A stretch of DNA of 64,000 nt from an uncultured Actinomycetota bacterium. GTDB taxonomy: Bacteria > Actinomycetota > Actinomycetes > JADGOV01. The translations under genes and the position numbers were made by a program. Every line of letters begins with the position of its first letter. Within the stretch, counting starts at the first letter, position 1. The notes under the pieces were generated by a model. It saw only the letters and a list, made by a program, of their open reading frames with translations, was not told the origin of the DNA and made no database searches. This document shows positions 10,694 to 25,592 of the stretch, piece by piece. The stretch lies in assembly GCA_963814355.1 (NCBI GenBank), contig CAWFCZ010000018.1, positions 854,590 through 918,589 on the forward strand, given 5' to 3'.

Positions 10694-12067
10694 GTGCCGC
10701 AACGACGCCCGGTGACGCGGCGGTCGCGGCTGAGCCATGCACTGCGGCTGCACCACCCGGCGCAGGCCGTCATCTACGCCTTCGCGATCGCGGTGGCGGT
10801 GGGCACGGTGCTGCTCATGCTGCCCGCGTCCTCGGCCGACGGCGGCGCCAGCACCTTCCGGGTGGCGCTGTTCACCTCCACCTCCGCGCTGTGCGTCACC
10901 GGGCTCACGGTGGTCGACACCGCCACGCACTGGTCGGCCTTCGGGCAGGTGGTGATCCTGGCCGGCATCCAGACCGGCGGCTTCGGCATCATGACCTCCG
11001 CGTCCTTGCTCGGCCTGCTCGTCTCCCGGCGGCTCGGGCTGCGTACCCGGCTGGTGGCCCAGACCGAGACCAACTCGCTGGCCCTCGGTGACGTCAGCCG
11101 GGTGCTGCGGGGAGTGGCGCTGACCAGCCTGTCCATCGAGGCGCTGGTGGCCATGCTGCTGACGGTTCGGCTGGTGGCCGGCGGCGGCGTCGGCCTGGGC
11201 CGGGCGATCTACCTCGGGGTCTTCCATTCGGTGTCGGCGTTCAACAACGCGGGCTTCGCGCTGTGGAGCGACAGCCTGGTGCGTTACGTCAGCGACCCCT
11301 GGTTCTGCCTGCCGATCGCGGCCGCCACGATCGTCGGTGGTCTCGGCTTCCCGGTGCTGTTCGAGCTCCGCCGCGAGCTTCGCTCGCCCCGACGATGGTC
11401 CGTACACACCAAGATCACTTTGCTAGCGACGATCGTGCTGCTCGCCAGCGGCATGGTCGTCCTGCTGGCCCTGGAATGGACCAACCCGGCGACGCTGGGG
11501 CCGCTGCACGCGCCCGGCAAAGTGCTGGCCGGCTTCTTTCAGAGCGTGATGCCGAGGACCGCGGGCTTTAACAGCCTGGACTACGGCCAAATGGGCAAGG
11601 AGTCCTTGCTGGTGACCGACGTCCTGATGTTCATCGGCGGCGGGAGCGCCAGCACCGCCGGTGGTATCAAGGTGACCACGTTCACCGTTTTGCTGTTCGC
11701 GATCCTGGCTGAGGCCCGCGGCGACGAGGCCGTCGAGTCCTTCGGACGCCGGGTGCCGCCCGCGGCCTTGCGCCAGGCCCTGTCGGTGGCCCTGCTCGGC
11801 GTCGCGATGGTGGTCGCCGGGACGCTCGCCATGCTGGAGATCACCGGGCTCGGGCTTGACCAGGTCCTGTTCGAAGTGGTGTCGGCCTTCGCCACGGTCG
11901 GCCTGTCCACCGGCATCACCCCCACCTTGCCGGCGGCCGCTCAGTACCTGCTGGTGGGGTTGATGTTCAGCGGCCGGGTGGGGACAGTCACCCTAGCCTC
12001 CGCGCTGGCCCTGCGGCAACGGCGGCGGCTGTACCAACTACCGGAGGAGCGACCCATCATTGGCTAG
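10694..12067 (+). CDS. trkH: TrkH/KtrB family potassium uptake membrane protein
   Basis: 457 aa polytopic membrane protein with the repeated selectivity-filter-like motifs of the Trk/Ktr family (GFNNAG, TAGFNSLD, GGGSASTAGGIKVTTF). Confidence 0.75.
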   Translation: MPQRRPVTRRSRLSHALRLHHPAQAVIYAFAIAVAVGTVLLMLPASSADGGASTFRVALFTSTSALCVTGLTVVDTATHWSAFGQVVILAGIQTGGFGIMTSASLLGLLVSRRLGLRTRLVAQTETNSLALGDVSRVLRGVALTSLSIEALVAMLLTVRLVAGGGVGLGRAIYLGVFHSVSAFNNAGFALWSDSLVRYVSDPWFCLPIAAATIVGGLGFPVLFELRRELRSPRRWSVHTKITLLATIVLLASGMVVLLALEWTNPATLGPLHAPGKVLAGFFQSVMPRTAGFNSLDYGQMGKESLLVTDVLMFIGGGSASTAGGIKVTTFTVLLFAILAEARGDEAVESFGRRVPPAALRQALSVALLGVAMVVAGTLAMLEITGLGLDQVLFEVVSAFATVGLSTGITPTLPAAAQYLLVGLMFSGRVGTVTLASALALRQRRRLYQLPEERPIIG

Positions 12068-12725
12068 GCGACTAGGGGAAGACGCGGTCCTGGTGATCGG
12101 GCTCGGTCGATTCGGCGGCGCCCTGGCCCTGATGCTGGAACGGCTGGGCCACGAAGTGCTGGCCGTCGACGCCAGTCACGCCCTCGTCCAGGAGTACTCC
12201 GGGGAAATCACGCACGCGGTGGAAGCCGACGCGACCAGCGCGGCGGCCCTGCGCCAGATTGGCGCCCGGGATTTCAAGACGGCCATCGTGGCCATCGGCA
12301 CCGGCATCGAGGCCAGCCTGCTCAGCGCCGGCGCGCTGGTGGACCTCGGAGTGCCGCAGATCTGGGCCAAGGCGATCACCACCCCCCACGGTCGCATCCT
12401 CGAGCGCATCGGCGTCCAGCACGTGGTCTATCCGGAACGCGCGATGGGCCAACGGGTCGCACACCTCATCTCCGGCCGGATCCTGGACTTCATCGAGTTC
12501 GACGACGGGTTCGCGATCGCGAAGCTCAAAGCCCCTCATCACGTAACCGGGCAGACCCTCGCCCAGTCCGGGCTGCGCACCAAGTACGGCGTCACGATCG
12601 TCGGGGTCAAGAGCCCGGGCCAGGACTTCACCCATGCCCAGCCGGAGACCTTGGTGGCCCACCGGGACCTACTGATCGTGTCCGGGCAGACCATCCTCGT
12701 GGAGGAGTTCGCCGCCACCCTCTGA
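12060..12725 (+). CDS. trkA: TrkA/KtrA potassium transporter NAD-binding regulatory subunit
   Basis: Overlaps trkH by 8 bp. It has an N-terminal Rossmann GxGxxG (VIGLGRFGGALA) and a C-terminal TrkA-C domain. Confidence 0.75.
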   Translation: MARRLGEDAVLVIGLGRFGGALALMLERLGHEVLAVDASHALVQEYSGEITHAVEADATSAAALRQIGARDFKTAIVAIGTGIEASLLSAGALVDLGVPQIWAKAITTPHGRILERIGVQHVVYPERAMGQRVAHLISGRILDFIEFDDGFAIAKLKAPHHVTGQTLAQSGLRTKYGVTIVGVKSPGQDFTHAQPETLVAHRDLLIVSGQTILVEEFAATL

Positions 12726-12801
12726 TCGTTACCGTGCGGCGCAGCGCCCGATGGAAGCAGCCTCGGCGCCCGGTCGGCTGACCGGCCGCCTCGGCGCCCG
12801 G

Positions 12802-13701
12802 TCAGCGGACCGGCTGCCAGTCCGGGTCCTGACCGGCAGCGAGGCGTCGCCAGCCGGTTCCGTCGGCCGCCGCGGTGTAGATCTGCCTGGTGTTGCCGGT
12901 GTGCTTCGTGAAGGCGACCTTGTCCCCGCTCGGGGAGTACACGCCGCCGTCGGTTGTGTAGCTCCGGGACGGTTGCAGCACGCTGACATGGAGTGGGCTG
13001 TCATCACCGGAGAAGTCACGCGCGGTCTGCACAAAGGAGAACAGGATGCCCGACCCGTCCGGGTTCCAATTCGCGTCATACATGTCGTCCGCGGAGTGCA
13101 CGCTGCCGCCGGTCCAGGTCATGACATCGACGGCGCCGGTGGCGACGTCCACCCGCGAGATGCACTTCAGCCCGTCGTCGACACAGGGATAGGTACCACC
13201 GAAGGCTCCGCCATTGAAGGCGATGCTTCGGCCGTCGGGTGACCAGGCGATCGGTCGGTTCTCCACGTACTGGTCGGTCACCGTCGCCGCGATGCCGAAC
13301 GGTTCCGTGGAGCTGATCCGCACCACGACGCTGGGGCCACCGACGGGTGTGGTGTACACGGCGGCCAGCGAGGTGCCGTCCGGTGACCAGGCAGGTGCGC
13401 CCAGGCCACCGGTTCGGGTTAGCTGCCTCTGCCGCCTGCCGTCGGCGTTCATCACCCACACGTTCCCGCCACGCAGCATGGCCAGGCGGCCGCCGTCCGG
13501 GGACCAACGCGGCTTCGTGCCCACGGTCACCCGCCGTAGGTTAGCCCCGGCCGGGGTCATGGTGTAGATCACGCCGCTGCGAACGAAGGCGATCCGCCCG
13601 TCGGCCCCCGGAAAGGCGGCGTCGGCGACTCCGGTTCCCAGCGGAGCCCAGAGCACGCACACCGTGATCGCGAGACCGACGAGTCGACGGGTTGCGTTCA
13701 T
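12802..13701 (-). CDS. Secreted TolB-like (PD40/WD40-like) beta-propeller repeat protein
   Basis: Start at ATG 13701 (MNATRRLVGLAITVCVLWAPLGTGVADA signal peptide) with an SD-like GAGGA upstream. Repeated 'SPDG..IAF / WSPDG' PD40 motifs are present. Confidence 0.6.
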   Translation of the reverse strand: MNATRRLVGLAITVCVLWAPLGTGVADAAFPGADGRIAFVRSGVIYTMTPAGANLRRVTVGTKPRWSPDGGRLAMLRGGNVWVMNADGRRQRQLTRTGGLGAPAWSPDGTSLAAVYTTPVGGPSVVVRISSTEPFGIAATVTDQYVENRPIAWSPDGRSIAFNGGAFGGTYPCVDDGLKCISRVDVATGAVDVMTWTGGSVHSADDMYDANWNPDGSGILFSFVQTARDFSGDDSPLHVSVLQPSRSYTTDGGVYSPSGDKVAFTKHTGNTRQIYTAAADGTGWRRLAAGQDPDWQPVR

Positions 13702-14433
13702 GGTGGGCGGTCCTCTGGCCGGCGGACACCGACTCGGCGGAGTCGGTTTCGCAACTGTAGGCAGCTGACGTGCCGCCGGACCGATCCAGCAGCAAGGGTT
13801 CACGCCGATGGCCCACCCACAAGCCGGACCTCCGGCAGAAGTCCGGCGCGCCCGGGAGGACTGGGTAAGAGTCAGGCGTTCCGGCCGGAACCGGGACGAC
13901 GGCTCCTCCCCTACGGCGCCGGAAAGCTTGTCGGGGTCGAGGCGTAAGAACGCCGCGTCGCTGGTCAGCCAGTCTCGGTCGCCCAGCCGCCGCCGGCCGT
14001 AGCGAGCACGTCGGCATATGCACGCCGGATCGGCCGCGATGAACCAAGTGCCGGCGACGTGATCGCTCCGCTCCGGCGACCAATGTCCACAACCGGTGCG
14101 CGGCTTGCAGCCTCCGTTGATAGTCGGGCCCGAAGTCGGCCGTCAGGCTTCGCGCATCGAATCGGCAACCTGCGATCGCGGGTCCCGGCCGAGGCGGAGA
14201 CGAGCGTGGGGACCGAGGCGGCTGGTGAGCTGGCGGACCACCTCGCGGATGTCCATCCGCGCAGGCGCGCGTGCGTCCACACCCAATCGAGGTCATACGT
14301 ATCACAACCATGTCACCTCCACCCTTGACGGCGGTCGAGGCTGCGCGATCCGCCCACGTTGACCCGTTCGATTAGGTGGGCCGCCGGGCTGGGGCCTTGG
14401 CTCCGACCGGCTCCGGGCGCGGTCAGGTGCCAC

Positions 14434-14916
14434 TCAGCCATAAGGCCCCAGGAACCGCTCGCCGTTGAAGTGGATCAGGTGCGTGGGATTGTCGGCGCAC
14501 CAGACTTCCGTTTCCCACGCGATCTGCGCCACGTATTTCCGCATGACGGCCCGGCTGGGAAAGCAGGAGACGTAGACCAGGCCTGAAGAGGATCCGCCGA
14601 AGAGTGCAGCCAACTCGCGGTGTCGCTTGGCGTCGACCGGCCCGTGCGAGGTCGCTGCCTCTAGGCATAGGAAGAAATCGTTGGCGCCGATGCTCACGGT
14701 CACCAAACGCGTGGTGGGATACGTCCGAACGAACGTCATGGGCGCCGCGGGTGCTTCTTGAACGCATCCTTGACCTTCTCGCCAGCGGCTATGAGGTCTG
14801 ATCCCGATGCCGTTTGGCCTGCCCGCTGCTGTTACCAGTGGCGCCGTGTCGGCCACTTCCTTAACCTTTCCCGTGACCCACTGGAGCTTGTTGCTCACCT
14901 TGTCCTGCAAGCTCAT
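14434..14916 (-). pseudogene. Gene debris: CsbD-like N-terminal peptide fused in-frame to a C-terminal fragment of an SGNH/GDSL-type hydrolase
   Basis: MSLQDKVSNKLQWVTGKVKEV resembles CsbD-family N-termini. From M60 (14739) the text resembles the middle/C-terminal blocks of SGNH hydrolases (VTVSIGANDF...) without the N-terminal catalytic Ser block. No intact domain is present, and the surrounding 1.5 kb lacks convincing genes. Confidence 0.2.
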
Positions 14917-15266
14917 AAGCTTCCTTCTCTGGGCCTTTCGAAGTTTGGCCGCGACACCATCGCCGCCGGGTACCCGGGCGGAAGCCGCGGGCGGTGCGGG
15001 CGGTGCTCCTCACGGTGCGGTTGGTTTGGGCTTCGGTACCGGCGTTCGTGATCCCGGTTTCGTCAACCGCATCGCTCCGGCGGCCTCGAAGACACTACGG
15101 TCTTGCACATCGACTCTGGGCTTAGGTTCCGCCGCTGCTGCTCGCACCGTTCGTGGTCCGCGAAACGGCCCGTCGTCCCGGCGAGCCGCTACGGGCACGG
15201 CACGGAGCGCCCGGCAAATACAGCGGAACCGCGCCACTGTGTGACAACTCGCGTACAGTGGGCAAT

Positions 15267-17141
15267 ATGGTGGTGGGGGATGTGCTGTCCGGGGTGTTGA
15301 GCGAGTTCGCCCGCACCCTGGTCACCGACTTCCCCATCCAGGGCATTCTGGATCATCTGGTGCAGCGCATCGTCGAGGTGCTGCCGGTGACCGGCGCCGG
15401 GGTGACCTTGATCTCCCCGGGGATGGCCCCGCAGTACGTCGCGGCCTCGGATGAGCTCGCGTTGGCGTTGGAGCGGCTGCAGACCGAGTTAGGGCAGGGA
15501 CCGTGCCTGGCCGCCTACGAGACGGGCGCGACGATTGTGGTGGCGGATCTGGCCGTCGACGTGCGCTTCCCGGCGTTCGGGCTGGCGGCGGTGGAGGCGG
15601 GGATGGCGGCGGTGTTCACCTTCCCGCTGCGCCACGGCGGCGGCTGCCTCGGAGCGTTGGGCCTCTACCGGGTGACCTCGGGCCCGCTAAGCCCGGCTGA
15701 CCTGGCCGCCGCGCAGACCCTCGCCGACGTCACCTCGGCCTACCTGCTCAACGCCCAGGCCCGGGACCAGGCGCTGGAGATCTCCGACCGGTTCCGGGAC
15801 AGCGCGCTGCACGACGCGCTGACCGGGCTGCCGAACCGGGTCCTGCTCCAACAGCGGCTGACCCACGCCGCCGAACGCTCCCAACGCTCCCACGCCACAG
15901 TGGCGGTGCTGTTCGCCGACCTCGACCGGTTCAAACACGTCAACGACAGCTACGGCCACGCCGTCGGCGATGAGCTGCTGGTCGCCGTGGCGCAGCGGCT
16001 GGCCGGGGTGCTCCGCCCCGGGGACACCCTGGCCCGGGTCTCCGGAGATGAGTTCGTCGTGCTGTGTGAGGACCTCGCCGACGCCGGCGACGCCGAACTC
16101 CTCGCCGCCCGGATCGCAGAGGCGTTCAGTACCCCGTTCGGGCTGGGCGGCCTCGAGCTGTTCGTGACCGCCAGCGTCGGCATCGCCTACGCCGGCGCCG
16201 GTGAGGCCGTCACCAACCAGCTGGTAATCGACGCGGACATCGCCATGTACCAGGCGAAACGCCGCGGCGGCGCCGCCCACCAGGTGATCGACCTGCGCGA
16301 CGCCCAGATCGGCCACGCCCGCAACCACCTCGACCAGGACCTATACGCCGCGCTGACCCGGGCCCAGCTCGACCTGGCCTACCAGCCGATCGTCCGCACC
16401 GCCGACCGTTGCGTCAGCAGCGTGGAAGCGCTGCTGCGCTGGGCGCACCCCGACCACGGCCCGATACCCGCGCTGGCCGCCGTCAGCGTCGCCGAGCAGA
16501 ACGGGCTGATCACCCAGATCGGCGCCTGGGTACTGGAACGCAGCTGCCGGGACCGGATGTCCTGGCTCGCGGCGCACCCCACCCGGGCACTCGGCCTCTC
16601 GGTGAACGTCTCCGCCCGCCAACTGCTCGGCGCCGGCTACGCCGCCGCCGTCGCCGCCGCGTTGGACACCACCGGGATGGACCCCGCCGCCCTCACCCTG
16701 GAACTCACCGAAGGCATCTTCATCGACAACGCTGACCGCGGGCTGAACGTACTCACCGACCTGAAAACCCTCGGCGTGGCACTCGCGCTCGACGACTTCG
16801 GCACCGGCTACAGCTCCCTCGGCTACCTACGGCAGTTCCCCGTCGACATAGTCAAAATCGACCGAGGCTTCATCGCCGACATCGGCCGCAACCCCGCCGG
16901 CGTCGCGATCATCACCGCCGTCACCACCCTCGCCCACACCCTCGGGCTCACCGTCACCGCCGAAGGCGTCGAAACCCAACGACAACACGACACGGTCACC
17001 AGGATCGGCTGCGACCACGCCCAAGGCTTCCTCTACGCCCAACCCATGCCCCGGGACGACATCACCCGCCTGCTCACCAGCCCAGCCCGACCCCTCCGCC
17101 GCCACGCAGCACCCAACCTCACGCTGCTCCTCGACCGGTAG
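15267..17141 (+). CDS. GAF-GGDEF-EAL c-di-GMP signalling protein
   Basis: ATG at 15267 (MVVGDVLSGV). N-terminal GAF domain. GGDEF domain with a GDEF active-site variant (RVSGDEFVV). EAL domain with ELTE, DDFGTGYSSL and KIDRGFI motifs. Confidence 0.75.
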   Translation: MVVGDVLSGVLSEFARTLVTDFPIQGILDHLVQRIVEVLPVTGAGVTLISPGMAPQYVAASDELALALERLQTELGQGPCLAAYETGATIVVADLAVDVRFPAFGLAAVEAGMAAVFTFPLRHGGGCLGALGLYRVTSGPLSPADLAAAQTLADVTSAYLLNAQARDQALEISDRFRDSALHDALTGLPNRVLLQQRLTHAAERSQRSHATVAVLFADLDRFKHVNDSYGHAVGDELLVAVAQRLAGVLRPGDTLARVSGDEFVVLCEDLADAGDAELLAARIAEAFSTPFGLGGLELFVTASVGIAYAGAGEAVTNQLVIDADIAMYQAKRRGGAAHQVIDLRDAQIGHARNHLDQDLYAALTRAQLDLAYQPIVRTADRCVSSVEALLRWAHPDHGPIPALAAVSVAEQNGLITQIGAWVLERSCRDRMSWLAAHPTRALGLSVNVSARQLLGAGYAAAVAAALDTTGMDPAALTLELTEGIFIDNADRGLNVLTDLKTLGVALALDDFGTGYSSLGYLRQFPVDIVKIDRGFIADIGRNPAGVAIITAVTTLAHTLGLTVTAEGVETQRQHDTVTRIGCDHAQGFLYAQPMPRDDITRLLTSPARPLRRHAAPNLTLLLDR

Positions 17142-17176
17142 ACCACCCCACCAGGCCCAACCAGGGGCGAACCGCC

Positions 17177-17430
17177 ATGCTGCCCCGGGTGCCGTTCGCG
17201 TGCGCGCTGGTGGAGGTCGATGCCCGCACCGGATTCTGCGACCACCTGGTCCACGCCGGCGGGAAGGTCACCCGGCCGGCCGAGTTGACACGCAACCTGA
17301 TCTACGTGATCGTCGCCGGGGCCGCCAACATGGGCCTGACCGCGATGGCCGAGTCCTGCGGCGTGCCCGACGACGTGCTCGCCTGGACCGCCGAGTGGTA
17401 CTTCCGGCCGAGAGACCCGCATCCGAGCCG
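17177..17430 (+). pseudogene. Tn3-family transposase (TnpA) internal fragment, remnant
   Basis: LVEVDARTGFCDHLVHAGGKVTRPAELTRNLIYVIVAGAANMGLTAMAESCGVPDDVLAWTAEWYF matches the conserved Tn3 TnpA block (..GFT..F.H......NlGl.kMA.....y..laW...W..r.ety). Only about 85 aa are present, with no start context or remainder of the roughly 1,000-aa protein and no inverted repeats seen. Confidence 0.5.
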
Positions 17431-17453
17431 AGGAATGCGCGAGTTACCCCCCG

Positions 17454-20400
17454 ATGGGCGAGCCCATGTTGTGCCTCATCGGGCGCATCGTCGGCCGCAG
17501 CCCCGTCACTCAAGATCGGGGCCTGCGGTACCGACCAGGGAGAGGTGAACCTTCCCCGGACGCGATCACGGAGCCGGGCGGTGTTGCCGGCCATCCGGCG
17601 CCTGCCGCCCGCCGGGGGGCGGGTGGATCGGTGACGGGCTTCGCCGCGGCGGTAGTCGCGTCGACGGCTGCGGTCGGCGGCGTCGCGGTTGTCCTCAGCG
17701 CTGGTGCTGACGCGGGGTTGGCGCAGGGAGTCGGCGATGTGGCCAGCTTGCTGGCCGCCGTGGTGGCGGTGCTTGCCTGTGCGCGCGCCGCCCGCAGGTC
17801 CGGGCCGGATGCTCGGGAGTGGGCGTTGCTGGCCCTAGCGGTCGGGGTCTGGGCGGCGGGGGCTCTGACTTGGGCGGTGTACGGCTTTACCCGGCACCAT
17901 GTCCACTCCTTCCCGTCGGCCGCCGACATCGGATTTCTCGGCTATTCGGCGCCTGCCGTGGTCGCCCTGTTGGCCTTCCGGCGGCGTGCGGTCCGCGCAG
18001 TATCGCGGGTGCCGGGGGTGCTCGACGGCCTTGTCGTCGGCACCGCGATCCTCTTCACGGGATGGGCCTTCGTGCTCGGCCCGCAGTACTACTCTGCTAG
18101 CGCGGGTTGGTCGGCCCGGGCTACGGGGCTTGCCTATCCGCTTGTCGATGCGGCGATCGCCTCGCTGGTCCTCGTTCTGGCAATGCGCCAGGTCCATGGC
18201 GCGCGGCTGCCTTGGGCGCTGGTGGGCTGCGGCCTGCTGGCGCTGACGGTGACCGACAGCATCTACGTGTCGCTGACCTTGAGCGGTCGGATCGGTCTGA
18301 CCGGCACTGCGCTGAGCGCCGGCTGGGTCGCTGCCTTTCTGCTGGTCGCTGTCGCGACGGTGGCGCCCCATCGGCTGACGGCACCCGGCCGGGTGCGGCG
18401 TATCGCGGTTGGCCAGGAGTTCCTCCCCTACGTTCCGGTGGCCATCGCGCTGATCGTCGCCGCCTACGAGCGGGTCTTCAGTGACCCCGTCCTGCTCGGC
18501 GTCGGCGCACTACTCCTTGTCCTGGTCGGTATCCGTCAGTTTTTGATCACGGTGGAGAGGGTCGCCCTGACCGACGACCTCGAGCACAGGGTGGCACGAC
18601 GCACCGCCGAGTTGCTCAGTGCCCGGGAAGACCTTCAGGATGCCTTCGACAATGCACCAATCGGTATGGTATGGGCCGACCTGGCCGGGACGTTCGTGCA
18701 GGTGAACCCCGCCTTCTGCCGGATGGTGGGCCGCAGCCGAGACGAGCTGGTCGGAACCCGGATCGGGGACATCACCTTTCCAGCGGACGTGGCTGCCAGC
18801 GAACTTCGCATGTCTCGGGGTGCTTCGAGCGAATCCCGAATCCCGCAGTTCGAGAAGCGCTACCGGCACGCCGACGGCAGCGGGGTGTGGGGGGAGGTCA
18901 GCCTGTTGCTCACCCGAGACGCGGCCGGTGCCCCGAAGTTCTTCCTCGCCCAGATCCAGGACATCACCGAACGCCGGTCCTCGGCGGCGCGCACCAAGGC
19001 CAACGAGGCCGTCTTCCTCGACGCGGTCCTGGAAAACCTCGACTCCGGCGTGATCGGCTGCGACGCCGAAGGCCGCCCGACCGTGTACAACCGGGCCAGC
19101 CGCGAACAATTCGGCCCACTCGTGCCGTCGCTCAATCCAGAGTTCTGGGCCGAACATTATGGCTTCTACCGGGCCGACGGAATCACCCCGCTGCCCACGC
19201 GGGAGATCCCCCTGTTCCGGGCATTGAGCGGCGAGCTCGTCGTCGACGTCGAAATGGTCATCGCGCGAAAAGGCGGCGACCCACGGACGGTGGTCGCCAA
19301 TGGGCACGCCATCAGCGGCGGCGACGGCGCCCCGCTCGGCGCGGTCGTGGTCACGCAGGACATCACCCAGCGCCGGAAGGCGGAGGCCGCCCTGAGGCGG
19401 CAGGCGTTGCACGACCCGCTCACCGACCTGCCCAACCGGGCGCTGCTGCGCGACCGGCTCGAGCACGCGATCGCCCGCCAAGCCCGTCAGCCGCACCCCC
19501 TGGCGCTGCTGCTGCTGGACCTGGACGGCTTCAAAATCGTCAACGACAGCCTCGGCCACCAGGCCGGCGACGAGGTCCTCATCACCCTCGCCGGACGCCT
19601 ACGCGCCTCGCTGCGCCCGGACGACACCATCGCCCGGCTGGGCGGCGACGAGTTCGCCGTCGTCCTGGAGAACACTTCAGAGGCCCAGGCCACCTCCATC
19701 GCGGCCCAAATCCTGGCAGTCATACGCCATCCCATCTCCATCCAAGGTCGATCGATCACCTCAGACGCCTCGGTCGGCATCACGACCAGCATCGGAGCCG
19801 ACGACCCGGAGACGCTGCTGCGCAACGCCGACCTGGCGATGTACGCGGCGAAGGACCACGGAAAGGGCAACATCCAGGTCTTCCACGCCTCCATGCACGA
19901 GACAGTCGTGGACCGGTTGACCCTCGATGCCGAACTCCGCGAAGCCGTCGACAAACGCCAGTTCACCCTCGCCTACCAGCCGATCGTGTCGCTGATCACC
20001 GGCCACCTCCAAGGCCTCGAAGCACTACTCCGGTGGAACCACCCCGACCACGGAGTCACGTCGCCATCGGCCTTCATCCCGCGGGCGGAGGCCACCGGAC
20101 TCATCGTGCCGATCGGACGAGGGGTGCTGCGCGAGGCGTGCCGCCAAGCCCGCGCATGGCGCCAGATCCTTCCCGACGCCCAGGACCTCACCATCTCGGT
20201 GAACCTCTCCGTCCGCCAGCTGCAAGACCCGGCGATCCTCGACATCGTCGCCGCCGCGCTGAGCGACACCGGCCTGCCGGCCGGGCAGCTACAGCTGGAA
20301 ATCACTGAAAGCGTCGTCGGTCGACGCGGGGATATCGTCGCGATCCTCCACCGCCTGCACGCCACCGGTGTCCATCTCGCCATCGACGACTTCGGCACCG

Positions 20401-20747
20401 GCTACTCCTCGCTCAGCCGCCTGCACGCACTGCCGGTCGACGTGGTCAAGATCGACAAGTCGTTCATCGACGCCCTCGCCGGCGGCGGCCCGGCGCCTCT
20501 GGTCGCCGCCACCATCTCCATGGCGCACAGCCTCGGGTTGCAGACCGTGGCCGAAGGTGTCGAAACGACCGACCAGCTGCCGTTCCTACGCCTCCACGGC
20601 TGCGACAACGTGCAGGGCTACCTGTTCGGCCGCCCCCTCGCCGCCGACGCGGTCACCGCGTTGCTGCGTCAGCGAGGCACCGGCAAGCTATGGGCGAATC
20701 CCGCCACGCCGGCCGGCCGTCCCCGCACTCAACCCCGGAGTGACTGA
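17454..20747 (+). CDS. Membrane-anchored PAS-PAS-GGDEF-EAL c-di-GMP signalling protein
   Basis: About 9-10 predicted TM helices in the N-terminal 350 aa. Two PAS domains (NAPIGMVWADLAGTFVQVNPAFCRMVG...). GGDEF (RLGGDEFAV). EAL (ELTE, DDFGTGYSSL, KIDKSFI). The true start may be the in-frame GTG at 17631; the upstream part overlaps the Tn3 remnant frame region. Confidence 0.75.
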   Translation: MGEPMLCLIGRIVGRSPVTQDRGLRYRPGRGEPSPDAITEPGGVAGHPAPAARRGAGGSVTGFAAAVVASTAAVGGVAVVLSAGADAGLAQGVGDVASLLAAVVAVLACARAARRSGPDAREWALLALAVGVWAAGALTWAVYGFTRHHVHSFPSAADIGFLGYSAPAVVALLAFRRRAVRAVSRVPGVLDGLVVGTAILFTGWAFVLGPQYYSASAGWSARATGLAYPLVDAAIASLVLVLAMRQVHGARLPWALVGCGLLALTVTDSIYVSLTLSGRIGLTGTALSAGWVAAFLLVAVATVAPHRLTAPGRVRRIAVGQEFLPYVPVAIALIVAAYERVFSDPVLLGVGALLLVLVGIRQFLITVERVALTDDLEHRVARRTAELLSAREDLQDAFDNAPIGMVWADLAGTFVQVNPAFCRMVGRSRDELVGTRIGDITFPADVAASELRMSRGASSESRIPQFEKRYRHADGSGVWGEVSLLLTRDAAGAPKFFLAQIQDITERRSSAARTKANEAVFLDAVLENLDSGVIGCDAEGRPTVYNRASREQFGPLVPSLNPEFWAEHYGFYRADGITPLPTREIPLFRALSGELVVDVEMVIARKGGDPRTVVANGHAISGGDGAPLGAVVVTQDITQRRKAEAALRRQALHDPLTDLPNRALLRDRLEHAIARQARQPHPLALLLLDLDGFKIVNDSLGHQAGDEVLITLAGRLRASLRPDDTIARLGGDEFAVVLENTSEAQATSIAAQILAVIRHPISIQGRSITSDASVGITTSIGADDPETLLRNADLAMYAAKDHGKGNIQVFHASMHETVVDRLTLDAELREAVDKRQFTLAYQPIVSLITGHLQGLEALLRWNHPDHGVTSPSAFIPRAEATGLIVPIGRGVLREACRQARAWRQILPDAQDLTISVNLSVRQLQDPAILDIVAAALSDTGLPAGQLQLEITESVVGRRGDIVAILHRLHATGVHLAIDDFGTGYSSLSRLHALPVDVVKIDKSFIDALAGGGPAPLVAATISMAHSLGLQTVAEGVETTDQLPFLRLHGCDNVQGYLFGRPLAADAVTALLRQRGTGKLWANPATPAGRPRTQPRSD

Positions 20748-20855
20748 ACGGAAGCTGTCAAGCCGCTGGCTGCGGGGGACGATGCAGCGAGTGGCTACGG
20801 TCGGCGAGCCGGATATGTTCTGCCATTGGGGCGATGTCGCCGCTGAGGAGGGGTC

Positions 20856-21692
20856 ATGAGCGACGACCAGGGGCGATTCGCTCGGCTCGACGACCGGCGG
20901 CGTCGGTTGCCGCGGCCGCGTACGCCGAAGGGTCTCGACCCGGCGGTCGTCCTGGCGCTGCACGAAGCCACCCGCCGGCTGCTCGACGCGGTGGAACCAG
21001 CGGATGTGGTGGAGGCCGCGACGGACCTGGTCAACGAACTCGGTGGCAGCGTGGTGCCGGCCGCCCGGGCCGGTGCGGATGTGCTGCCCCTGGACCTTTC
21101 CTTCGGCTCGACCGACCCCCTGCTCCCGGCTGCCCCGCGGGCCAGCGTGGCGCGGATGCATCTCGAGACGTTGCTGCCTGCCTTCCTCGAAGACGCCCGT
21201 CGATCGGTGATGGAGTTGCGCGGTAAGAGCTCGCTGCAGAATGAGGCGACTCGGGACCATCTGACCGGGTTGCTCAACCGGCGGACGCTTGACCGACGGC
21301 TGAGCCAGCTGCGAGTCGGGGATCCAGTCGCGATCCTGGATTTGGACTTCTTCAAGCAGCTCAACGACACCGAAGGACACGCCGCCGGCGACGCCGTACT
21401 CGTCGCTTTCGGTCGGGTTGTCCGTCAGCATGTCCCCAGCGGCGACATCGCTGGCCGGTACGGCGGTGAAGAATTCGTCGTTGCCCTCCGCGGGGCGGCT
21501 CCTGCGACGCTGCTGGCCCGGCTGACCGAGATCCGGCGGGCGTGGGAAACCGTCCGGCCGTTCTCGGTGTCGTTCTCGGCCGGGGTGAGCGTCGTGACCA
21601 CTACCGGCGCCCGGGCTTTGCAGGTTGCCGACCAGGCGCTCTACGTGGCCAAACAGCGGGGGCGAAACCGAATAGAGATGGCTTCGGCGTGA
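20856..21692 (+). CDS. GGDEF-domain diguanylate cyclase with uncharacterised N-terminal sensory domain
   Basis: 278 aa. The C-terminal GGDEF domain has an intact GGEEF active site (RYGGEEFVV) and an RxxD-like I-site context. The N-terminal roughly 120 aa is of unknown function. The stop overlaps the start of the next gene (GTGA). Confidence 0.75.
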   Translation: MSDDQGRFARLDDRRRRLPRPRTPKGLDPAVVLALHEATRRLLDAVEPADVVEAATDLVNELGGSVVPAARAGADVLPLDLSFGSTDPLLPAAPRASVARMHLETLLPAFLEDARRSVMELRGKSSLQNEATRDHLTGLLNRRTLDRRLSQLRVGDPVAILDLDFFKQLNDTEGHAAGDAVLVAFGRVVRQHVPSGDIAGRYGGEEFVVALRGAAPATLLARLTEIRRAWETVRPFSVSFSAGVSVVTTTGARALQVADQALYVAKQRGRNRIEMASA

Positions 21693-22714
21693 CGGCTACA
21701 CGGCCCCTTCATGCTGTGGTGGCTCAATTCCTGGACCTCATCCGGCAGCGCGCTCCCGTGGCCGCGGCTGCTCTCGCCGTCGCGCAGCTTCAGCACGGAT
21801 ATCGACCTGACCAGGTCATCTCCGACCTGCTGGTGCCTGTGCAGGTGGAGGTTGGGCGACGTTGGCACCGCGCACTGTGGACGGCCGCGGATGAGCATCA
21901 GGCGACAGCGGTGACCGACGCCGCGCTGTACGGCGTCACATCTGACGGTATCCGGCCTCGGGAGATCCGGGGAACCGCGGCCGTCGCCTGCGCCGTCGGC
22001 GACTGGCATGTCCTGCCGTCACGAATGGCGGCGGAGTTGCTGCGCCTCGACGGCTGGGACGTCCTGTTCCTCGGCGGTTCGCTCCCGCCAGCGGATCTTT
22101 CCCAGTGGTTGATCGACGCCCGACCGGACGTCCTGGTGGTGTCCTGCTCGATGCCGACAACTGCCCGCAGCGTCGTGGCCACCGCGATGGCGGGGGCCGA
22201 AGTCGGCGTTCCGGTCGTCGTCGGCGGACGTGGCATGGGCCCGGACGGTAGGCGCGCGGCCGCGCTCGGCGTGCGATGGGCGGCGGACCTCAAGTGCCTG
22301 GCGGCTGCCCTAGCGGCTCCAACACCTGCCACCGCCCAACGAGAACTGGCCGAACGGCTGGAGGAGCACTCGCAGCTACTCCTGCGGCGTACGGAGATCG
22401 TCGCCGGGGCTGTCAACGAACTCGGCCGGCTGTGGCCGGCGATGTCCGCGTTCTCCGACACTCAGATGTCCCGGACCAGCGAGGACTTCGGCCATATCGT
22501 CGACTTCCTCGGGGCCGCTGTGGCCACCGATGATCCGCGTCTCTTCGGCGAGTTCGTCGATTGGCTTCGGCTGCTACTGTCCTCCCGCCATCTACCGCCA
22601 GCGGTGCTGCAGATCAGCCTGCGCGCCCTGGCCGCGGCGCTTCCCCGCGAGTTGCCGCTGGCCCCGGCGATCCTGGCCACCACCCGCGACTCGTTACCTA
22701 TGGAGGTGCGGTGA
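21689..22714 (+). CDS. Stand-alone cobalamin (B12)-binding domain protein (CarH C-terminal-like sensor module, no DNA-binding domain) with extra C-terminal helical domain
   Basis: GTG start at 21689 overlapping the upstream stop (GCGTGACGG). B12-binding_2 helical bundle with a W..EH motif (VGRRWHRALWTAADEHQATAVTD). B12-binding Rossmann domain with a DxHxx(G) variant (AVGDWHVLPSRMAAELLRLDGWDVLFLGGSLP...DVLVVSCSMP...VVVGG). Followed by about 150 aa of uncharacterised helical sequence. Confidence 0.55.
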   Translation: MTATRPLHAVVAQFLDLIRQRAPVAAAALAVAQLQHGYRPDQVISDLLVPVQVEVGRRWHRALWTAADEHQATAVTDAALYGVTSDGIRPREIRGTAAVACAVGDWHVLPSRMAAELLRLDGWDVLFLGGSLPPADLSQWLIDARPDVLVVSCSMPTTARSVVATAMAGAEVGVPVVVGGRGMGPDGRRAAALGVRWAADLKCLAAALAAPTPATAQRELAERLEEHSQLLLRRTEIVAGAVNELGRLWPAMSAFSDTQMSRTSEDFGHIVDFLGAAVATDDPRLFGEFVDWLRLLLSSRHLPPAVLQISLRALAAALPRELPLAPAILATTRDSLPMEVR

Positions 22715-23019
22715 CAGCACCGGCATTCGTCGTGACCAGTGAGGTCACTATCCCCGAAAGTGCCGCCGAGGGACTGGAGGCGGCGTTCACGGCGCGCCTC
22801 GGCGAAGTGGACAGTTTCCCCGGCTTCCAACGCCTTGAGGTCTGGCGAGACACCGCAAGCCGAGGGACGTACCTTATGGTGTCCTGGTGGGATAGCCGGC
22901 GGGACTTCACCAGCTACATGCGTTCCGCGCAACACCGGCGATCCCACCAGCGCATCCCGACCGAGCCGGTCAAGCCTCGTGGGACCGGAGTACACCGGTT
23001 CGAACGCATCTCCTGTTGA
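22711..23019 (+). CDS. Antibiotic-biosynthesis-monooxygenase (ABM) domain protein
   Basis: GTG at 22711 overlapping the upstream stop (GTGA), with GGAGGTG SD immediately upstream. A 102-aa ferredoxin-like ABM fold signature is present (FQRLEVWRD...YLMVSWWDSRRDFTSYMRSAQH). Confidence 0.55.
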   Translation: MTAPAFVVTSEVTIPESAAEGLEAAFTARLGEVDSFPGFQRLEVWRDTASRGTYLMVSWWDSRRDFTSYMRSAQHRRSHQRIPTEPVKPRGTGVHRFERISC

Positions 23020-23144
23020 CGGCTTCCATCCTGCCGTCGTAGGTGCGAACTCGACGCCGCATAATGATCGTTTCCCCGCACCCGAAAGCTTCGCACCGGA
23101 CTTGCGGCTCTCACCGCATCTCGGCTCACGCAAGCCACGGGGGC

Positions 23145-23955
23145 TCACGGCAGCCGCGTTGAAGTCCCGGGCGTCGTACCACGGCACCTGCCCGCCAGGG
23201 ACGAAGTAGAGGAGGACCAGCGCCGAGCGCTCGTTCGACCTCTCGGCATCGAAACCCAGGGACTCCAGGACCGTCGAGCGTGAGGCGAAGGTGTGCAGGC
23301 GGTCGACGACCACGGCGTTGCGAGGAGGAACATGCGGAAACGTTTGACGTACGGACCGTTGGCGAACGACCGAGGGGTGATCGCGACGAGTTGTCCGCCG
23401 GGACGAAGCGACAGCACCCCCACGGTCACGAAGGCGGCATAGAGGGTCGGGGCGTCGACCCCCATAGCGGCGAGCGTCGGTGGCCGAGTTAGTCGCCAAC
23501 TTGCCGTACGGTGGATTCATGATCACCAAGTCGTATGCGTCGTACTCGTGTGCGGTGCCCATCCCGGTGCCCGCATAGAGCAGGTCCTCGCACCGGACGT
23601 CGACCGTCACGGTTACACCCCGTTTACGCGCCCACTCGACGCACAGCGCGGCCGTCGCCTCCAGTGCCGGAAGGAGGGCCGGGTCCACCTCCACCGCCGT
23701 GACGGCTATTGTCGTTCTCGGCTTGTCCGCCACCATGCGCTGCACAAGCGCGGCCAGCAACATGCCCGACCCAGCACCCGGGTCCAAGACGCGCATGGGT
23801 CCGTCCCCGTCCGGCAGGCGCGGCATGTGTGCCATCAGGGCCGCCGCACGTTCAGGAGTGAAGAACTGGCCGAGGCGCGCCTGCTGCCTCTCGTCCAGGC
23901 TTGCGAGCGTCAAGACCCTGAGCGCCTCAGCACGTTTCAGAAGATCGTTCGCCAC
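23145..23955 (-). pseudogene. Frameshifted and 3'-truncated Eco57I/type-IIG-like N6-adenine DNA methyltransferase (restriction-modification remnant)
   Basis: N-terminal 170 aa in one frame carry motif X/I/IV of gamma-class N6-MTases (LGQFFTP..., VLDPGAGSG, MNPPYGK). Continuation (GVDAPTLYAAFVTVGVLSLRPGGQLVAITPRSFANGPYVKRFRMFLL) is in a different frame (ORF 23145..23465), then stops. The expected large C-terminal specificity/endonuclease region is absent. The remainder of the long ORF 22462..23144 is antisense read-through of the B12/ABM genes. Confidence 0.5.
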
Positions 23956-24002: not shown

Positions 24003-25592
24003 CTATTCCCATTCGATGGTGCCCGGCGGCTTGCTGGTGACGTCCAGCACCACCCGGTTGACCCCGGGCACTTCGTTGGGAATGCGCCCGGAGATTGTGC
24101 CCAGCACGTCATAGGGCAGCCGAGCCCAGTCCGCAGTCATCGCGTCGGCCGAGGTGACCGGTCGCAGCACGACCGGATGGCCGTAGGTGCGACCGTCGCC
24201 TTGGACGCCGACGGAACGTACCTCGGCGAGGAGTACCACCGGGCACTGCCAGATCTCCCGGTCCAGCCCGGCCCGGGTCAACTCCTCGCGAACGATGGCG
24301 TCCGCCGCCCTGAGCATCTCCAGCCGTTGCACGGTCACTTCGCCGACGATCCGGATCCCGAGGCCCGGCCCAGGGAACGGCTGGCGCCAGACAATCTCCG
24401 GTGGCAGCCCCAACTCCTCACCGACCCGCCGCACCTCGTCCTTGAACAACAGCCGAAGCGGCTCGACGAGGGCGAAGGTGAGATCGTCGGGCAGCCCGCC
24501 GACATTGTGGTGCGACTTGATCGTGGCCGTACTTGAGCCGCCTGAGCCGCCCGACTCGACGACGTCCGGATAGAGGGTCCCCTGGACGAGAAACTCGACC
24601 GGTTCGGTCTCCTCCAGCCCCCGGGCGGCTTGCTCGAAGGCCCGGATGAACTCCCGCCCGATCGCCTTGCGCTTCTCCTCCGGGTCGCGAATCCCGGCCA
24701 GCGCCGCCATGAAGGCCGGTACTGCGTCCGCCACGTGCAGCCGGACACCGGTGGCGGCCACGAAATCCCGCTCGACCTGCTCGGCTTCGCCGGCCCGCAG
24801 CAGGCCGTGGTCGACGAAGACGCACTCCAACTGGTCGCCGATCGCCCGCTGGACCAGCGCGGCTGCCACCGCCGAGTCCACTCCGCCGGACAGCCCGCAG
24901 ATCACCCGCTTGCCGCCGACCTGCGCCCGGATCGCCTCGATGGAGTCGGTGACGATGTTGAGCATCGTCCAGGTCGGGCGACAGCCGGCAGCGTCGAGCA
25001 AGAAGTGCCGCAGCATGTCCGACCCGCGGTCGGTGTGCAGCACCTCCGGGTGGAACTGGACGCCGTACAGCCCGCGCGCGGGATGCTCGAACGCCGCTAC
25101 CGGGGTCGCCTCGGTGGCCGCAGTGACCCGGAACCCGTCCGGGGCCGAGCGCACCGAGTCACGGTGGGACATCCAGACCGACGCGGCCGGCGGCAGGCCG
25201 GCGAACAGCGTGCCCGGATCGCGGACCGACAACGCGGTGGCGCCGTACTCCGCGGTGCCGGTCCGGGCCACCTCGGCGCCGAGGGCCTGGGCCATGGCCT
25301 GGAAGCCGTAGCAGATCCCGAGCGTCGGTACCCCGGTGGCGAACAGCGCGGCCGGTACGGCCGGGGCGTCGGGGGCGTACACCGACGACGGTCCCCCGGA
25401 GAGCACGATCGCCTTCGGGTGCTTGGCCAGCATCTCCGGCAGGGCCATCGACCAGGGCACGATTTCGGAGTAGACGTGGCACTCCCGGATCCGGCGGGCG
25501 ATGAGCTGGGCGTACTGGGCGCCGAAGTCCACCACCAGGACGCGGTCATGCCCAGCCGCGTCGGCGGCCGGCGTCTCGGTGGCGTGCGTCAT
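24003..25592 (-). CDS. guaA: GMP synthase (glutamine-hydrolysing)
   Basis: Start at M53 of the ORF (MTHATE...). N-terminal class-I glutamine amidotransferase (GICYGFQ catalytic Cys). ATP pyrophosphatase P-loop SGGVDS. C-terminal dimerisation domain. Full-length GuaA. Confidence 0.9.

What the first reader, a model, noticed from the sequence alone, without database searches (positions are those of the whole stretch)
15267..23955. Accessory c-di-GMP island with mobile-element and restriction-modification scars
Within about 9 kb there are three c-di-GMP enzymes: GAF-GGDEF-EAL, a 10-TM PAS-PAS-GGDEF-EAL protein, and GGDEF. A Tn3-family transposase fragment sits exactly between the first two, and a decayed type-IIG-like methyltransferase lies at the distal end. 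About 1.5 kb of gene debris (13.7-15.26 kb) forms the proximal end. The block sits between conserved housekeeping genes (trkHA/tolB-like on one side, guaA on the other). This is the signature of a horizontally acquired signalling island that has since lost its mobility functions.
Basis: partly seen in the sequence, partly recalled or inferred. Interest (0 to 1): 0.55.

Follow-up and report, generated by a model that had tools for sequence, protein, structure and literature searches.

The report
c-di-GMP gene block inside dead restriction gene
An 8.55-kb block of five signalling genes (three cyclic-di-GMP enzymes, one paired with a vitamin-B12/bilin light sensor and a heme-degrading enzyme) was inserted into the endonuclease gene of a decaying restriction-modification cassette in an actinobacterial chromosome; this is an ordinary example of a gene island that has lost its mobility.

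Summary

A sister-species contig (L082, 84-89% nt identity) has trkH-trkA-TolB-like-[R.BsuBI/PstI-like, Eco57I-type MTase]-guaA with no c-di-GMP genes. In the window, 14662-23212 (8,551 bp) replaces ~0.62 kb inside the endonuclease gene. A separate ~0.86-kb deletion fuses the methyltransferase stump to the endonuclease N-terminus. So the R-M remnants are the broken insertion target, not part of the island, and the methyltransferase is not type IIG.

The GGDEF gene is joined by GTGA overlaps to a photocobilin (E 4e-50 to PDB 8J2W) and an IsdG-like ABM protein, a known kind of light-controlled cyclase module.

The block is a mosaic:
- GAF-GGDEF-EAL is host-like in codon usage.
- The other block genes and the R-M remnants are atypical.
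- Homologues elsewhere sit alone.
- The photocobilin cassette lies beside another Tn3 transposase in two metagenome contigs.

No terminal repeats, target duplication, integrase or tRNA were found. The island reading holds with corrected boundaries, on one comparator genome. Interest is low to moderate.

The parts
12802..13701 (-). TolB-like PD40 beta-propeller gene (299 aa). Conserved left flank, syntenic with L082.
   Evidence: Pfam PD40; gene call in L083; 84% nt identity to L082.
13895..14403 (.). 509 bp with no counterpart in L082, which has 75 bp here. Unexplained.
   Evidence: Alignment gap; no Pfam, Rfam or repeat hit.
14404..14661 (-). C-terminal remnant of a BsuBI/PstI-type restriction endonuclease gene (stop codon at 14434-14436). 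Left half of the insertion target.
   Evidence: Pfam PF06616, 92-95 bits, profile 79-154 of 154; 88.8% nt identity to L082 5122-5378.
14662..15266 (.). Left end of the insert. Gene-free and low in GC (0.636). Presumably holds the promoter region of the GAF-GGDEF-EAL gene.
   Evidence: Homology to L082 stops at 14661; GC; no family hits.
15267..17141 (+). GAF-GGDEF-EAL protein (624 aa) with SGDEF, an RxxD I-site and an intact EAL motif set. Host-like codon usage.
17177..17407 (+). Internal relic of a Tn3-family transposase gene, equivalent to residues 577-653 of about 1007.
17631..20747 (+). 10-TM / PAS-PAS / GGDEF / EAL protein (1038 aa from the GTG at 17631; the longest ORF starts at 17454). 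All catalytic motifs are intact and the family is rare.
20856..21692 (+). Stand-alone diguanylate cyclase (278 aa; GGEEF, no I-site). First gene of the photocobilin cassette.
21689..22714 (+). Stand-alone photocobilin (B12-binding_2 + B12-binding + photoglobin domain; W-x9-EH and His ligand conserved). Its GTG start overlaps the cyclase stop (GTGA).
   Evidence: PMC10979010.
22711..23019 (+). ABM-domain protein (102 aa), closest to IsdG/HmuQ-type heme-degrading enzymes. Its GTG start overlaps the photocobilin stop.
   Evidence: Pfam ABM 50.8 bits; NCBIfam PRK13315 42 bits, below cut-off; 72% identity to the ABM gene of L084/L085.
23020..23212 (.). Right end of the insert, gene-free.
   Evidence: Homology to L084/L085 ends at 23020; homology to L082 resumes at about 23213.
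23209..23272 (-). N-terminal remnant (about 21 codons, LESLGFDAERSNERSALVLL) of the same endonuclease gene. Right half of the insertion target.
   Evidence: 93.8% nt identity to L082 5996-6059, inside the RE_N gene.
23270..23955 (-). Eco57I-type N6-adenine methyltransferase pseudogene. The N-terminal ~40% is retained with two frameshifts; the C-terminal part was lost in a ~0.86-kb deletion.
24003..25592 (-). guaA (GMP synthase, 529 aa). Conserved right flank.

Best explanation
Window 14662-23212 is an 8,551-bp mosaic insertion that landed in the endonuclease gene of a resident two-gene BsuBI/PstI-type restriction-modification cassette lying between a TolB-like gene and guaA. It replaced about 0.62 kb of that gene. 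A second deletion of about 0.86 kb, plus frameshifts, then destroyed the methyltransferase. The block was assembled from at least two or three units. (i) A GAF-GGDEF-EAL gene looks native to the lineage and relocated. (ii) A rare 10-TM PAS-PAS-GGDEF-EAL gene has atypical codon usage. (iii) A translationally coupled cassette encodes a diguanylate cyclase, a stand-alone photocobilin (AdoCbl + bilin photoreceptor) and an IsdG-like ABM enzyme. A 231-bp internal relic of a Tn3-family transposase gene between units (i) and (ii), and the occurrence of unit (iii) beside another Tn3-family transposase in unrelated contigs, point to Tn3-family transposition for at least part of the delivery, followed by deletions that removed the transposase, the inverted repeats and any target duplication. 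Functionally the block adds three input-specific c-di-GMP turnover modules: GAF-sensed, membrane/PAS-sensed, and light-sensed. In the light module, the photocobilin most likely activates the adjacent cyclase by protein-protein contact on illumination, and the ABM enzyme supplies the bilin from heme. Shown: the insertion, its boundaries, the gene content, the motif integrity and the family memberships. Inferred: the delivery mechanism, the order of events and all biochemical activities.
For: Empty site: L082 has trkH-trkA-TolB-like-R-M-guaA with no c-di-GMP genes. Collinear blastn blocks are W10662-13894 = L1839-5046, W14404-14661 = L5122-5378, W23209-23272 = L5996-6059 and W23270-24246 = L6917-7896. 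L082's R gene covers the full Pfam profiles (RE 4-153/154, HTH 2-129/140), while the window keeps only RE 79-154 plus about 21 N-terminal codons. The uninterrupted state is therefore ancestral. Mosaic origin: homologues of the two large genes are solitary in ordinary chromosomal contexts. Composition: flank genes have GC3 0.84-0.93 and CAI 0.63-0.76. The block genes have GAF-GGDEF-EAL 0.91/0.70, TM-PAS 0.84/0.59, DGC 0.80/0.56, photocobilin 0.78/0.52 and ABM 0.74/0.50; the R-M remnants are 0.80-0.82/0.49-0.55. Tn3. The DGC-Pcob-ABM cassette (72/64/72% aa identity) lies beside a Tn3 DDE gene in L084/L085. Photocobilin: E 4e-50 to 8J2W across residues 24-318. GTGA overlaps. The DGC-Pcob pair recurs in three further lineages. 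Light activation of a DGC by photocobilin, including in trans, is reported in PMC10979010. Catalytic motifs are intact.
Against: There is only one close comparator, a 7.9-kb Logan contig. No terminal inverted repeats, target-site duplication, resolvase, integrase or tRNA were found, so the insertion mechanism is not demonstrated. The Tn3 relic is only 30% identical to the transposase next to the cassette in L084/L085, so they are different elements. It also lies upstream of unit (ii), not next to the photocobilin cassette. Overall GC of the insert (0.689) is close to the flanks (0.71). The junctions are not independently confirmed by reads. The ABM-to-heme-oxygenase assignment is below the NCBIfam cut-offs.
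Confidence: 0.8

Rival explanations
1. The c-di-GMP cluster is ancestral at this position and the L082 lineage lost it by deletion. The window would then show the original state, not an insertion.
For: Only one comparator exists. GAF-GGDEF-EAL is host-like in codon usage and belongs to a family conserved across Actinomycetota.
Against: L082 carries about 0.62 kb of endonuclease-coding and about 0.86 kb of MTase/endonuclease-coding sequence that the window lacks. These segments complete full-length family profiles collinearly, and a deletion cannot create them. In the window the two endonuclease remnants flank the block in the order and orientation expected for an interrupted gene. Homologues of the block genes are unlinked elsewhere.
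Confidence: 0.04
2. One intact composite Tn3-family transposon (or another single mobile element) delivered all five genes in one event, and later decay removed its ends and transposase.
For: There is a single pair of breakpoints in the R gene. A Tn3 relic lies inside the block. The photocobilin cassette is seen next to Tn3 transposase genes elsewhere.
Against: Codon usage is heterogeneous within the block. The genes are never linked in other genomes. The relic is internal, so transposon ends would be expected within the block rather than at its borders. No inverted repeats or target duplication were found anywhere. The cluster tables suggest that TM-PAS-GGDEF-EAL, DGC and photocobilin also exist at 99.5-100% identity on a second contig without a GAF-GGDEF-EAL cluster mate.
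Confidence: 0.15
3. The arrangement is an assembly artefact: a chimeric join in a metagenome-assembled contig brought unrelated c-di-GMP genes between the R-M fragments.
For: The source appears to be a MAG-type 1.27-Mb contig. Independent Logan contigs from run ERR11571143 cover only 10534-13862 and 20549-22241 and do not span either junction.
Against: Two independent chimeric joins would have to fall inside one 1-kb gene and leave its two remnants in correct order and orientation. The MTase-endonuclease fusion and the frameshifts are typical biological decay. The Logan contigs agree at 99.9-100% with the window where they overlap.
Confidence: 0.03

Closest known systems
Accessory c-di-GMP genes on mobile elements and in variable gene complements (for example DGCs on SXT/R391 ICEs, plasmid-borne PDEs, variable-complement GGDEF/EAL genes of Acidithiobacillus; PMC4542580, PMC5023117, PMC6416229)
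   Same: GGDEF/EAL genes are present in one genome and absent at the same site in a near relative. They are associated with mobile-element remains and partly atypical in composition.
   Different: Here the carrier is fully degraded: no integrase, conjugation genes or transposon ends remain. The host is an uncultured-type actinobacterium, and the landing site is the endonuclease gene of an R-M cassette.
Photocobilins: SasPcob (PDB 8J2W/8J2X) and the DGC fusion AbDPcob (8J2Y), Nat Commun 2024, PMC10979010; photoglobin operons predicted in PMC8717448
   Same: The domain set is the same (B12-binding_2, B12-binding, C-terminal photoglobin). W-x9-EH and the His ligand are conserved. The protein is linked to a diguanylate cyclase, and ABM monooxygenase is already listed among photoglobin operon neighbours.
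   Different: Cyclase and photoreceptor are separate, translationally coupled genes rather than a fusion. An IsdG-like ABM gene is coupled downstream. The cassette is found beside Tn3-family transposase remains in two contexts. Nothing has been tested biochemically for this member.
Tn3-family transposons with passenger genes
   Same: A DDE_Tnp_Tn3 fragment is 56-60% identical to actinobacterial plasmid Tn3 transposases, and signalling genes sit in positions where passenger genes would be.
   Different: Only 77 of about 1000 codons survive. No 38-bp inverted repeats, 5-bp target duplication, resolvase or res site were found. It cannot be called a transposon today.
BsuBI/PstI-type type II restriction-modification systems
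   Same: In L082 the R gene has both family domains (PF17728 + PF06616). The adjacent gamma-type N6-adenine MTase has DPGAGSG and NPPY motifs, and the M stop overlaps the R start.
   Different: In the window both genes are wrecks. R is reduced to 76 C-terminal and about 21 N-terminal codons that flank the insert. M is truncated, frameshifted and fused to the R stump. Even in L082 both genes carry a frameshift.
Mycobacterial GAF-GGDEF-EAL bifunctional enzymes (DcpA/MSDGC-1, Rv1354c type; recalled from memory, not tested here)
   Same: The three-domain architecture and length (~620 aa) are the same, and the family is very widespread in Actinomycetota at 64-73% identity.
   Different: The window protein has SGDEF instead of GGDEF. 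Orthology to the mycobacterial enzymes was not tested directly. Here the gene sits inside an inserted block rather than in the ponA/whiB-type context seen for a 73% homologue (L092).

Membership tests
Genomic island (strain- or species-variable inserted block) | Present in one genome and absent at the orthologous site of a close relative | tested here: met
   L082 lacks the block between conserved flanks. Only one relative was available.
Genomic island (strain- or species-variable inserted block) | Atypical composition relative to the host | tested here: inconclusive
   Four of the five genes have low GC3 and CAI, GAF-GGDEF-EAL is host-like, and bulk GC is 0.689 against 0.71.
Genomic island (strain- or species-variable inserted block) | Integrase, tRNA target or flanking direct repeats | tested here: not met
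   No tRNA in the window, no integrase domain in any block ORF, and no border repeats.
Tn3-family transposon | Full-length (~1000 aa) DDE transposase | tested here: not met
   Only residues 577-653 are represented, and no other fragment exists in 64 kb.
Tn3-family transposon | ~38-bp terminal inverted repeats (GGGG...TAAG type) and a 5-bp target duplication | tested here: not met
   No inverted repeats at or near 14662/23212. The pattern GGGGN28-32TAAG gave 0 matches in the window. Divergent inverted repeats could escape this simple pattern.
Tn3-family transposon | Sequence homology of the fragment to Tn3 transposases | tested here: met
   Pfam 43.5 bits against a cut-off of 24. tblastn gave 56-60% identity to annotated Tn3 family transposases.
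BsuBI/PstI-type type II R-M system | Endonuclease with BsuBI_PstI_RE_N and BsuBI_PstI_RE domains | tested here: not met
   The window has only RE profile 79-154 plus about 21 N-terminal codons, split by the insert. L082 has both full domains. The window locus is a remnant of such a system, not a member in working order.
BsuBI/PstI-type type II R-M system | Separate adjacent N6-adenine methyltransferase with motif I and NPPY | tested here: inconclusive
   The motifs are present, but the gene is frameshifted twice and lacks its C-terminal ~60%.
   In L082, R and M are separate genes with a 4-bp overlap, and R is of the BsuBI/PstI type. The Eco57I Pfam hit covers only the methylase domain.
Photocobilin (B12 + bilin photoreceptor) | B12-binding_2 + B12-binding + C-terminal photoglobin domain, homologous over the full length to a characterised member | tested here: met
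   phmmer E 4e-50 to SasPcob 8J2W over residues 24-318 and E 3e-40 to AbPcob 8J2Y. Pfam finds both B12 domains.
Photocobilin (B12 + bilin photoreceptor) | CarH-type W-x9-EH motif and His lower ligand | tested here: met
   WHRALWTAADEH and GDWHVLP align with the SasPcob residues WQANRWSVAQEH and GEWHALP.
Photocobilin (B12 + bilin photoreceptor) | Binds AdoCbl and biliverdin; light-dependent control of a partner enzyme | not testable with these tools
   This needs spectroscopy and enzyme assays. It has been shown for SasPcob and AbDPcob only (PMC10979010).
Active diguanylate cyclase / c-di-GMP phosphodiesterase | GG[DE]EF active-site motif; EAL, DDFGTG, E-x-T-E, KxD and EGVE motifs | tested here: met
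   TM-PAS protein: GGDEF + RxxD and all EAL motifs. DGC: GGEEF. GAF protein: SGDEF (variant), RxxD and all EAL motifs. Activity itself was not tested.
IsdG/HmuQ-type heme-degrading ABM enzyme | Scores above the curated family cut-off | tested here: not met
   The ABM fold is confirmed by Pfam (50.8 against 23.1). The heme oxygenase models are the best NCBIfam hits but score below cut-off (42 against 119; 29 against 130). The heme-degrading role is an inference from context.

The most novel reading that the evidence does not exclude
The DGC-photocobilin-ABM cassette is a self-contained, horizontally mobile 'light-to-c-di-GMP' module. It would be a natural split version of the photocobilin-cyclase fusion that carries its own IsdG-type bilin supply and spreads among actinobacteria as Tn3-family transposon cargo. 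It would give stand-alone photocobilins, whose role the 2024 paper called unclear, a defined native partner and a testable system.
Probability: 0.4. Interest if true: 0.45.

Novelty: new member of a known kind. Interest (0 to 1): 0.3.

Why it matters
The finding is a clean, nucleotide-resolved example of how second-messenger signalling repertoires grow. Sensor-specific c-di-GMP enzymes accumulate at a site that an earlier selfish element, an R-M cassette, had already made disposable, and the carriers are then erased. That process is well known in principle. The more useful by-product is a native gene arrangement (cyclase, stand-alone photocobilin and IsdG-like ABM protein, all translationally coupled and recurring in other lineages). 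It names the likely physiological partner and chromophore source of stand-alone photocobilins, which are of interest for green/red-light optogenetics.

Tried and rejected
The best match was 77% identical, and none of the 80 loci had trkA, TolB-like or any block gene near guaA, so they gave no usable synteny. Five loci have an unrelated GGDEF gene within 3 kb of guaA (37-42% identity, domain only, from two clades). I judged this compatible with chance.
2. The metagenome-contig scan anchored on the TolB-like protein found nothing closer than 33% identity.
3. Cluster look-ups for flank and R-M proteins of the window and L082 found no further relatives.
4. Attempts to fetch the 287,755-bp contig that carries near-identical copies of three block genes failed, because P0006 and P0031 are not on record.
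5. Repeat search found only GGDEF/EAL domain paralogy at 60-78% identity, with no border repeats. The Tn3-type IR pattern search gave 0 hits. Mapping a full Tn3 transposase onto the window found no second fragment.
6. Rfam, tRNA and promoter/terminator scans of 12-26.5 kb found nothing above noise.
7. Pfam scans of all ORFs in 13.7-14.45 kb, 14.6-15.2 kb and 23.0-23.3 kb found nothing beyond the R remnant and the ABM gene. Apparent SGNH-like and CsbD-like peptide strings at the left end have no statistical support.
8. Plasmid searches for the photocobilin and the 10-TM domain found only distant homologues at 30-36% identity.
9. I looked for an inverted repeat downstream of the ABM gene in L084/L085 to carry over to the window. 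None was recognisable, and the transposase there is itself decayed.
10. A recent tandem duplication as the origin of the three GGDEF genes was rejected, because the domains share only 60-78% nt identity over short stretches.

Full report
**Context.** The window is about 70% GC and actinobacterial in gene content (PIG-L/MshB-like, greA, trkH, trkA, guaA, LigD primase-polymerase). The best guaA matches among 185,579 species genomes are only 77% identical, to Nonomuraea, Jatrophihabitans and Frankiaceae. Cluster tables show that the window's proteins occur on one 1.27-Mb NCBI/ENA contig and on almost nothing else. The lineage is therefore poorly sampled.

**Checking the observation.** Pfam confirms the three c-di-GMP proteins.
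- GAF-GGDEF-EAL lies at 15267-17141.
- A large protein in ORF 17454-20747 has two PAS stretches, GGDEF and EAL. A hydropathy scan gives 10 TM segments, and the likely start is the GTG at 17631.
- A 278-aa GGDEF protein lies at 20856-21692, and the same gene call appears in L081.

The segment between the first two genes translates to a piece of a Tn3-family transposase. Pfam DDE_Tnp_Tn3 scores 43.5 bits against a cut-off of 24. It is 56-60% identical over 77 residues to annotated Tn3-family transposases on actinobacterial plasmids. Mapped onto a 1007-aa Streptomyces plasmid transposase, it covers residues 577-653, and nothing else in the 64-kb window matches that protein.

On the minus strand at 23270-23955 there is an N6-adenine methyltransferase with DPGAGSG and NPPYGKL motifs, followed by two frameshifts.

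- a BsuBI/PstI endonuclease C-terminal fragment at 14404-14661 (92-95 bits, profile positions 79-154 only);
- a 341-aa B12-binding protein at 21689-22714;
- a 102-aa ABM protein at 22711-23019.

**The decisive comparison.** A >90%-identical TrkA in the cluster tables led to L082, a 7.9-kb contig from run SRR23898733. It is 84-89% identical to the window across trkH, trkA, the TolB-like gene, the methyltransferase 5' part and the guaA 3' end. Its gene order is trkH, trkA, TolB-like, R (BsuBI_PstI_RE + RE_N), M (Eco57I-type), guaA, with no c-di-GMP gene.

Nucleotide alignment fixes the breakpoints.
- Homology runs to window 14661, inside the endonuclease C-terminal domain, and resumes at about 23213, inside the endonuclease N-terminal domain.
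- The 8,551 bp in between replace about 0.62 kb of L082.
- After only 64 bp of endonuclease N-terminus (23209-23272), the window jumps to the middle of the methyltransferase gene. This is a separate deletion of about 0.86 kb.
- The window's reading frame shows the fusion directly...RLHTFASRSTV | LESLGFDAERSNERSALVLL | then insert.

L082's endonuclease spans the full Pfam profiles (RE 4-153/154, HTH 2-129/140). The uninterrupted cassette is therefore the ancestral state and the window carries an insertion. A deletion in L082 cannot generate the missing coding sequence.

The methyltransferase belongs to a two-gene BsuBI/PstI-type system and is not a type IIG enzyme. Where the block is absent, TolB-like and guaA are separated by the 2.8-kb R-M cassette rather than abutting.

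The R-M remnants have the lowest codon adaptation in the region (CAI 0.49-0.55), which suggests the cassette was itself an earlier acquisition. Even in L082 both genes carry a frameshift.

**What the block is made of.** Codon statistics split it.

| Gene(s) | GC3 | CAI |
|---|---|---|
| Flanking genes | 0.84-0.93 | 0.63-0.76 |
| GAF-GGDEF-EAL | 0.91 | 0.70 |
| TM-PAS-GGDEF-EAL | 0.84 | 0.59 |
| DGC | 0.80 | 0.56 |
| B12 protein | 0.78 | 0.52 |
| ABM | 0.74 | 0.50 |

GAF-GGDEF-EAL has thousands of relatives at 64-73% identity across Actinomycetota. The closest named genome is a Mycobacteriales MAG. That MAG's copy is 73% identical and its guaA is 76% identical. There the gene sits by ponA and whiB with no mobile element nearby. 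It therefore looks like a lineage-native gene that has been moved.

The 10-TM PAS protein has only about five full-length relatives at 57-65% identity. Two of them, examined in context, are solitary chromosomal genes. The three units are never neighbours elsewhere. The GGDEF/EAL repeats inside the block are old domain paralogy at 60-78% identity, not recent duplication.

**The third unit is a known kind of photoreceptor module.** The B12 protein aligns over residues 24-318 with SasPcob, the stand-alone photocobilin of Saccharothrix syringae (PDB 8J2W/8J2X, E 4e-50), and with the photocobilin domain of a cyclase fusion (8J2Y, E 3e-40). The alignments include the C-terminal photoglobin domain, the W-x9-EH motif and the His ligand.

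The 2024 paper (PMC10979010) makes these points:
- Photocobilins bind adenosylcobalamin and biliverdin.
- Light raises the activity of the fused cyclase more than tenfold.
- Stand-alone photocobilins activate an isolated cyclase domain in trans.
- The natural role of the stand-alone form remains unclear.

The 2021 photoglobin paper (PMC8717448) already lists GGDEF and ABM monooxygenase among the operon neighbours.

In the window, the cyclase, photocobilin and ABM genes are joined by GTGA stop/start overlaps. The ABM protein's best curated matches are IsdG-type heme oxygenase and HmuQ, although both score below cut-off. The cyclase-photocobilin pair with a 4-bp overlap recurs in three other lineages (L084/L085, L086-L089 and the P0016 contig). 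The ABM gene recurs in one of them. A fifth homologue is instead next to a MASE4 hybrid kinase.

The most likely function is a split light-activated diguanylate cyclase with its own bilin supply. This is inferred from homology and gene context and was not tested.

**How it got there.** In L084/L085 the same three-gene cassette (72/64/72% amino-acid identity) lies directly beside a divergently oriented Tn3-family transposase gene, and in L084 also near a phage-type integrase. That transposase is only 30% identical to the window's relic, so these are different elements. The association of this cassette with Tn3-family elements is nevertheless seen twice.

The window holds no terminal inverted repeats, target duplication, resolvase, integrase or tRNA. 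It holds no riboswitch or other Rfam match either. The mechanism is therefore inferred: Tn3-family transposition for at least part of the block, probably in more than one step, followed by deletions that trimmed everything not under selection down to gene boundaries.

One lead was left open. A 287,755-bp contig encodes 99.5-100% identical copies of the TM-PAS protein (frameshifted there), the cyclase and the photocobilin. No ≥90% cluster mates of TrkA, TolB-like, guaA or GAF-GGDEF-EAL come from that contig. This could mean the right-hand sub-block exists in a second context. The contig could not be retrieved.

**Rivals.**
- Loss in L082 is excluded by the continuity of its endonuclease gene.
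- A chimeric assembly would need two joins inside one gene that preserve the order and orientation of its remnants. Independent Logan contigs agree with the window where they overlap, though none spans a junction.
- A single-event delivery of all five genes is possible but fits poorly with the compositional heterogeneity and the internal position of the transposase relic.

**Verdict.** It needs three refinements: the R-M remnants are the target, the block is a mosaic that includes one native-looking gene, and one of the three cyclases belongs to a photocobilin light-sensing cassette. Accessory c-di-GMP genes on decayed mobile elements are well documented (for example PMC6416229, PMC4542580), so this is a new member of a known kind. 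Interest is low to moderate. Most of it lies in the native split cyclase-photocobilin-ABM arrangement, which is a ready-made test system for stand-alone photocobilins.

Noticed in passing
window 13895-14403: A 509-bp segment between the TolB-like upstream region and the endonuclease stop codon has no counterpart in L082, which has 75 bp here. It has no Pfam, Rfam or repeat match. It may be another small insertion or a gene remnant.
   Followed up: partly
window 10662 and upstream; L082 1-1838: Synteny with the sister contig also breaks immediately upstream of trkH. L082 has glycyl-radical and radical-SAM activase genes there, while the window has HPPD-like dioxygenase and greA. The whole neighbourhood is rearranged between the two relatives.
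   Followed up: partly
cluster tables for window 17631-22714 (P0031, P0001, P0006): A second NCBI/ENA contig of 287,755 bp encodes 99.5-100% identical TM-PAS-GGDEF-EAL (frameshifted in the EAL domain), cyclase and photocobilin. No ≥90% relatives of the flanking genes or of GAF-GGDEF-EAL come from it. This may be a second genomic context for the right-hand sub-block. The contig was not retrievable.
   Followed up: partly
L084 4108-7883; L085 1381-5606: The cyclase-photocobilin-ABM cassette sits next to a decayed, divergently oriented Tn3-family transposase gene. In L084, a tyrosine recombinase, an HTH protein and a 793-aa unknown protein lie beyond it. The two contigs are 99% identical over 4 kb and then diverge, as expected for a mobile-element hotspot.
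   Followed up: partly
L082 5630-5672 and ~7344-7420: In the sister contig both R-M genes are also interrupted. The endonuclease is split between its HTH and catalytic domains, and the methyltransferase motif-I region is in a different frame from the rest. Either the cassette was already decaying before the insertion in the window lineage, or these are assembly errors.
   Followed up: no
L067, L068 (~13575-14125); L070, L073, L077 (~11570-12120): In two other actinobacterial clades (Nanopelagicales MAGs; Cellulomonas and relatives) an unrelated GGDEF gene lies within 0-3 kb downstream of guaA. Identity to the window's cyclase is only 37-42% over the domain. This is probably coincidence.
   Followed up: partly
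window 17631-18620: The 10-TM N-terminal domain of the PAS-GGDEF-EAL protein matches no curated family, apart from a sub-threshold DUF7937 hit at 17.6 bits. It has very few relatives, and its only plasmid hits are 30%-identical haloarchaeal sensor kinases. It is an uncharacterised membrane sensor module.
   Followed up: partly
window 15267-17141, residue 259: The GAF-GGDEF-EAL protein carries SGDEF instead of GGDEF, while keeping the RxxD I-site and all EAL motifs. Whether it still makes c-di-GMP or acts only as a phosphodiesterase is open.
   Followed up: no
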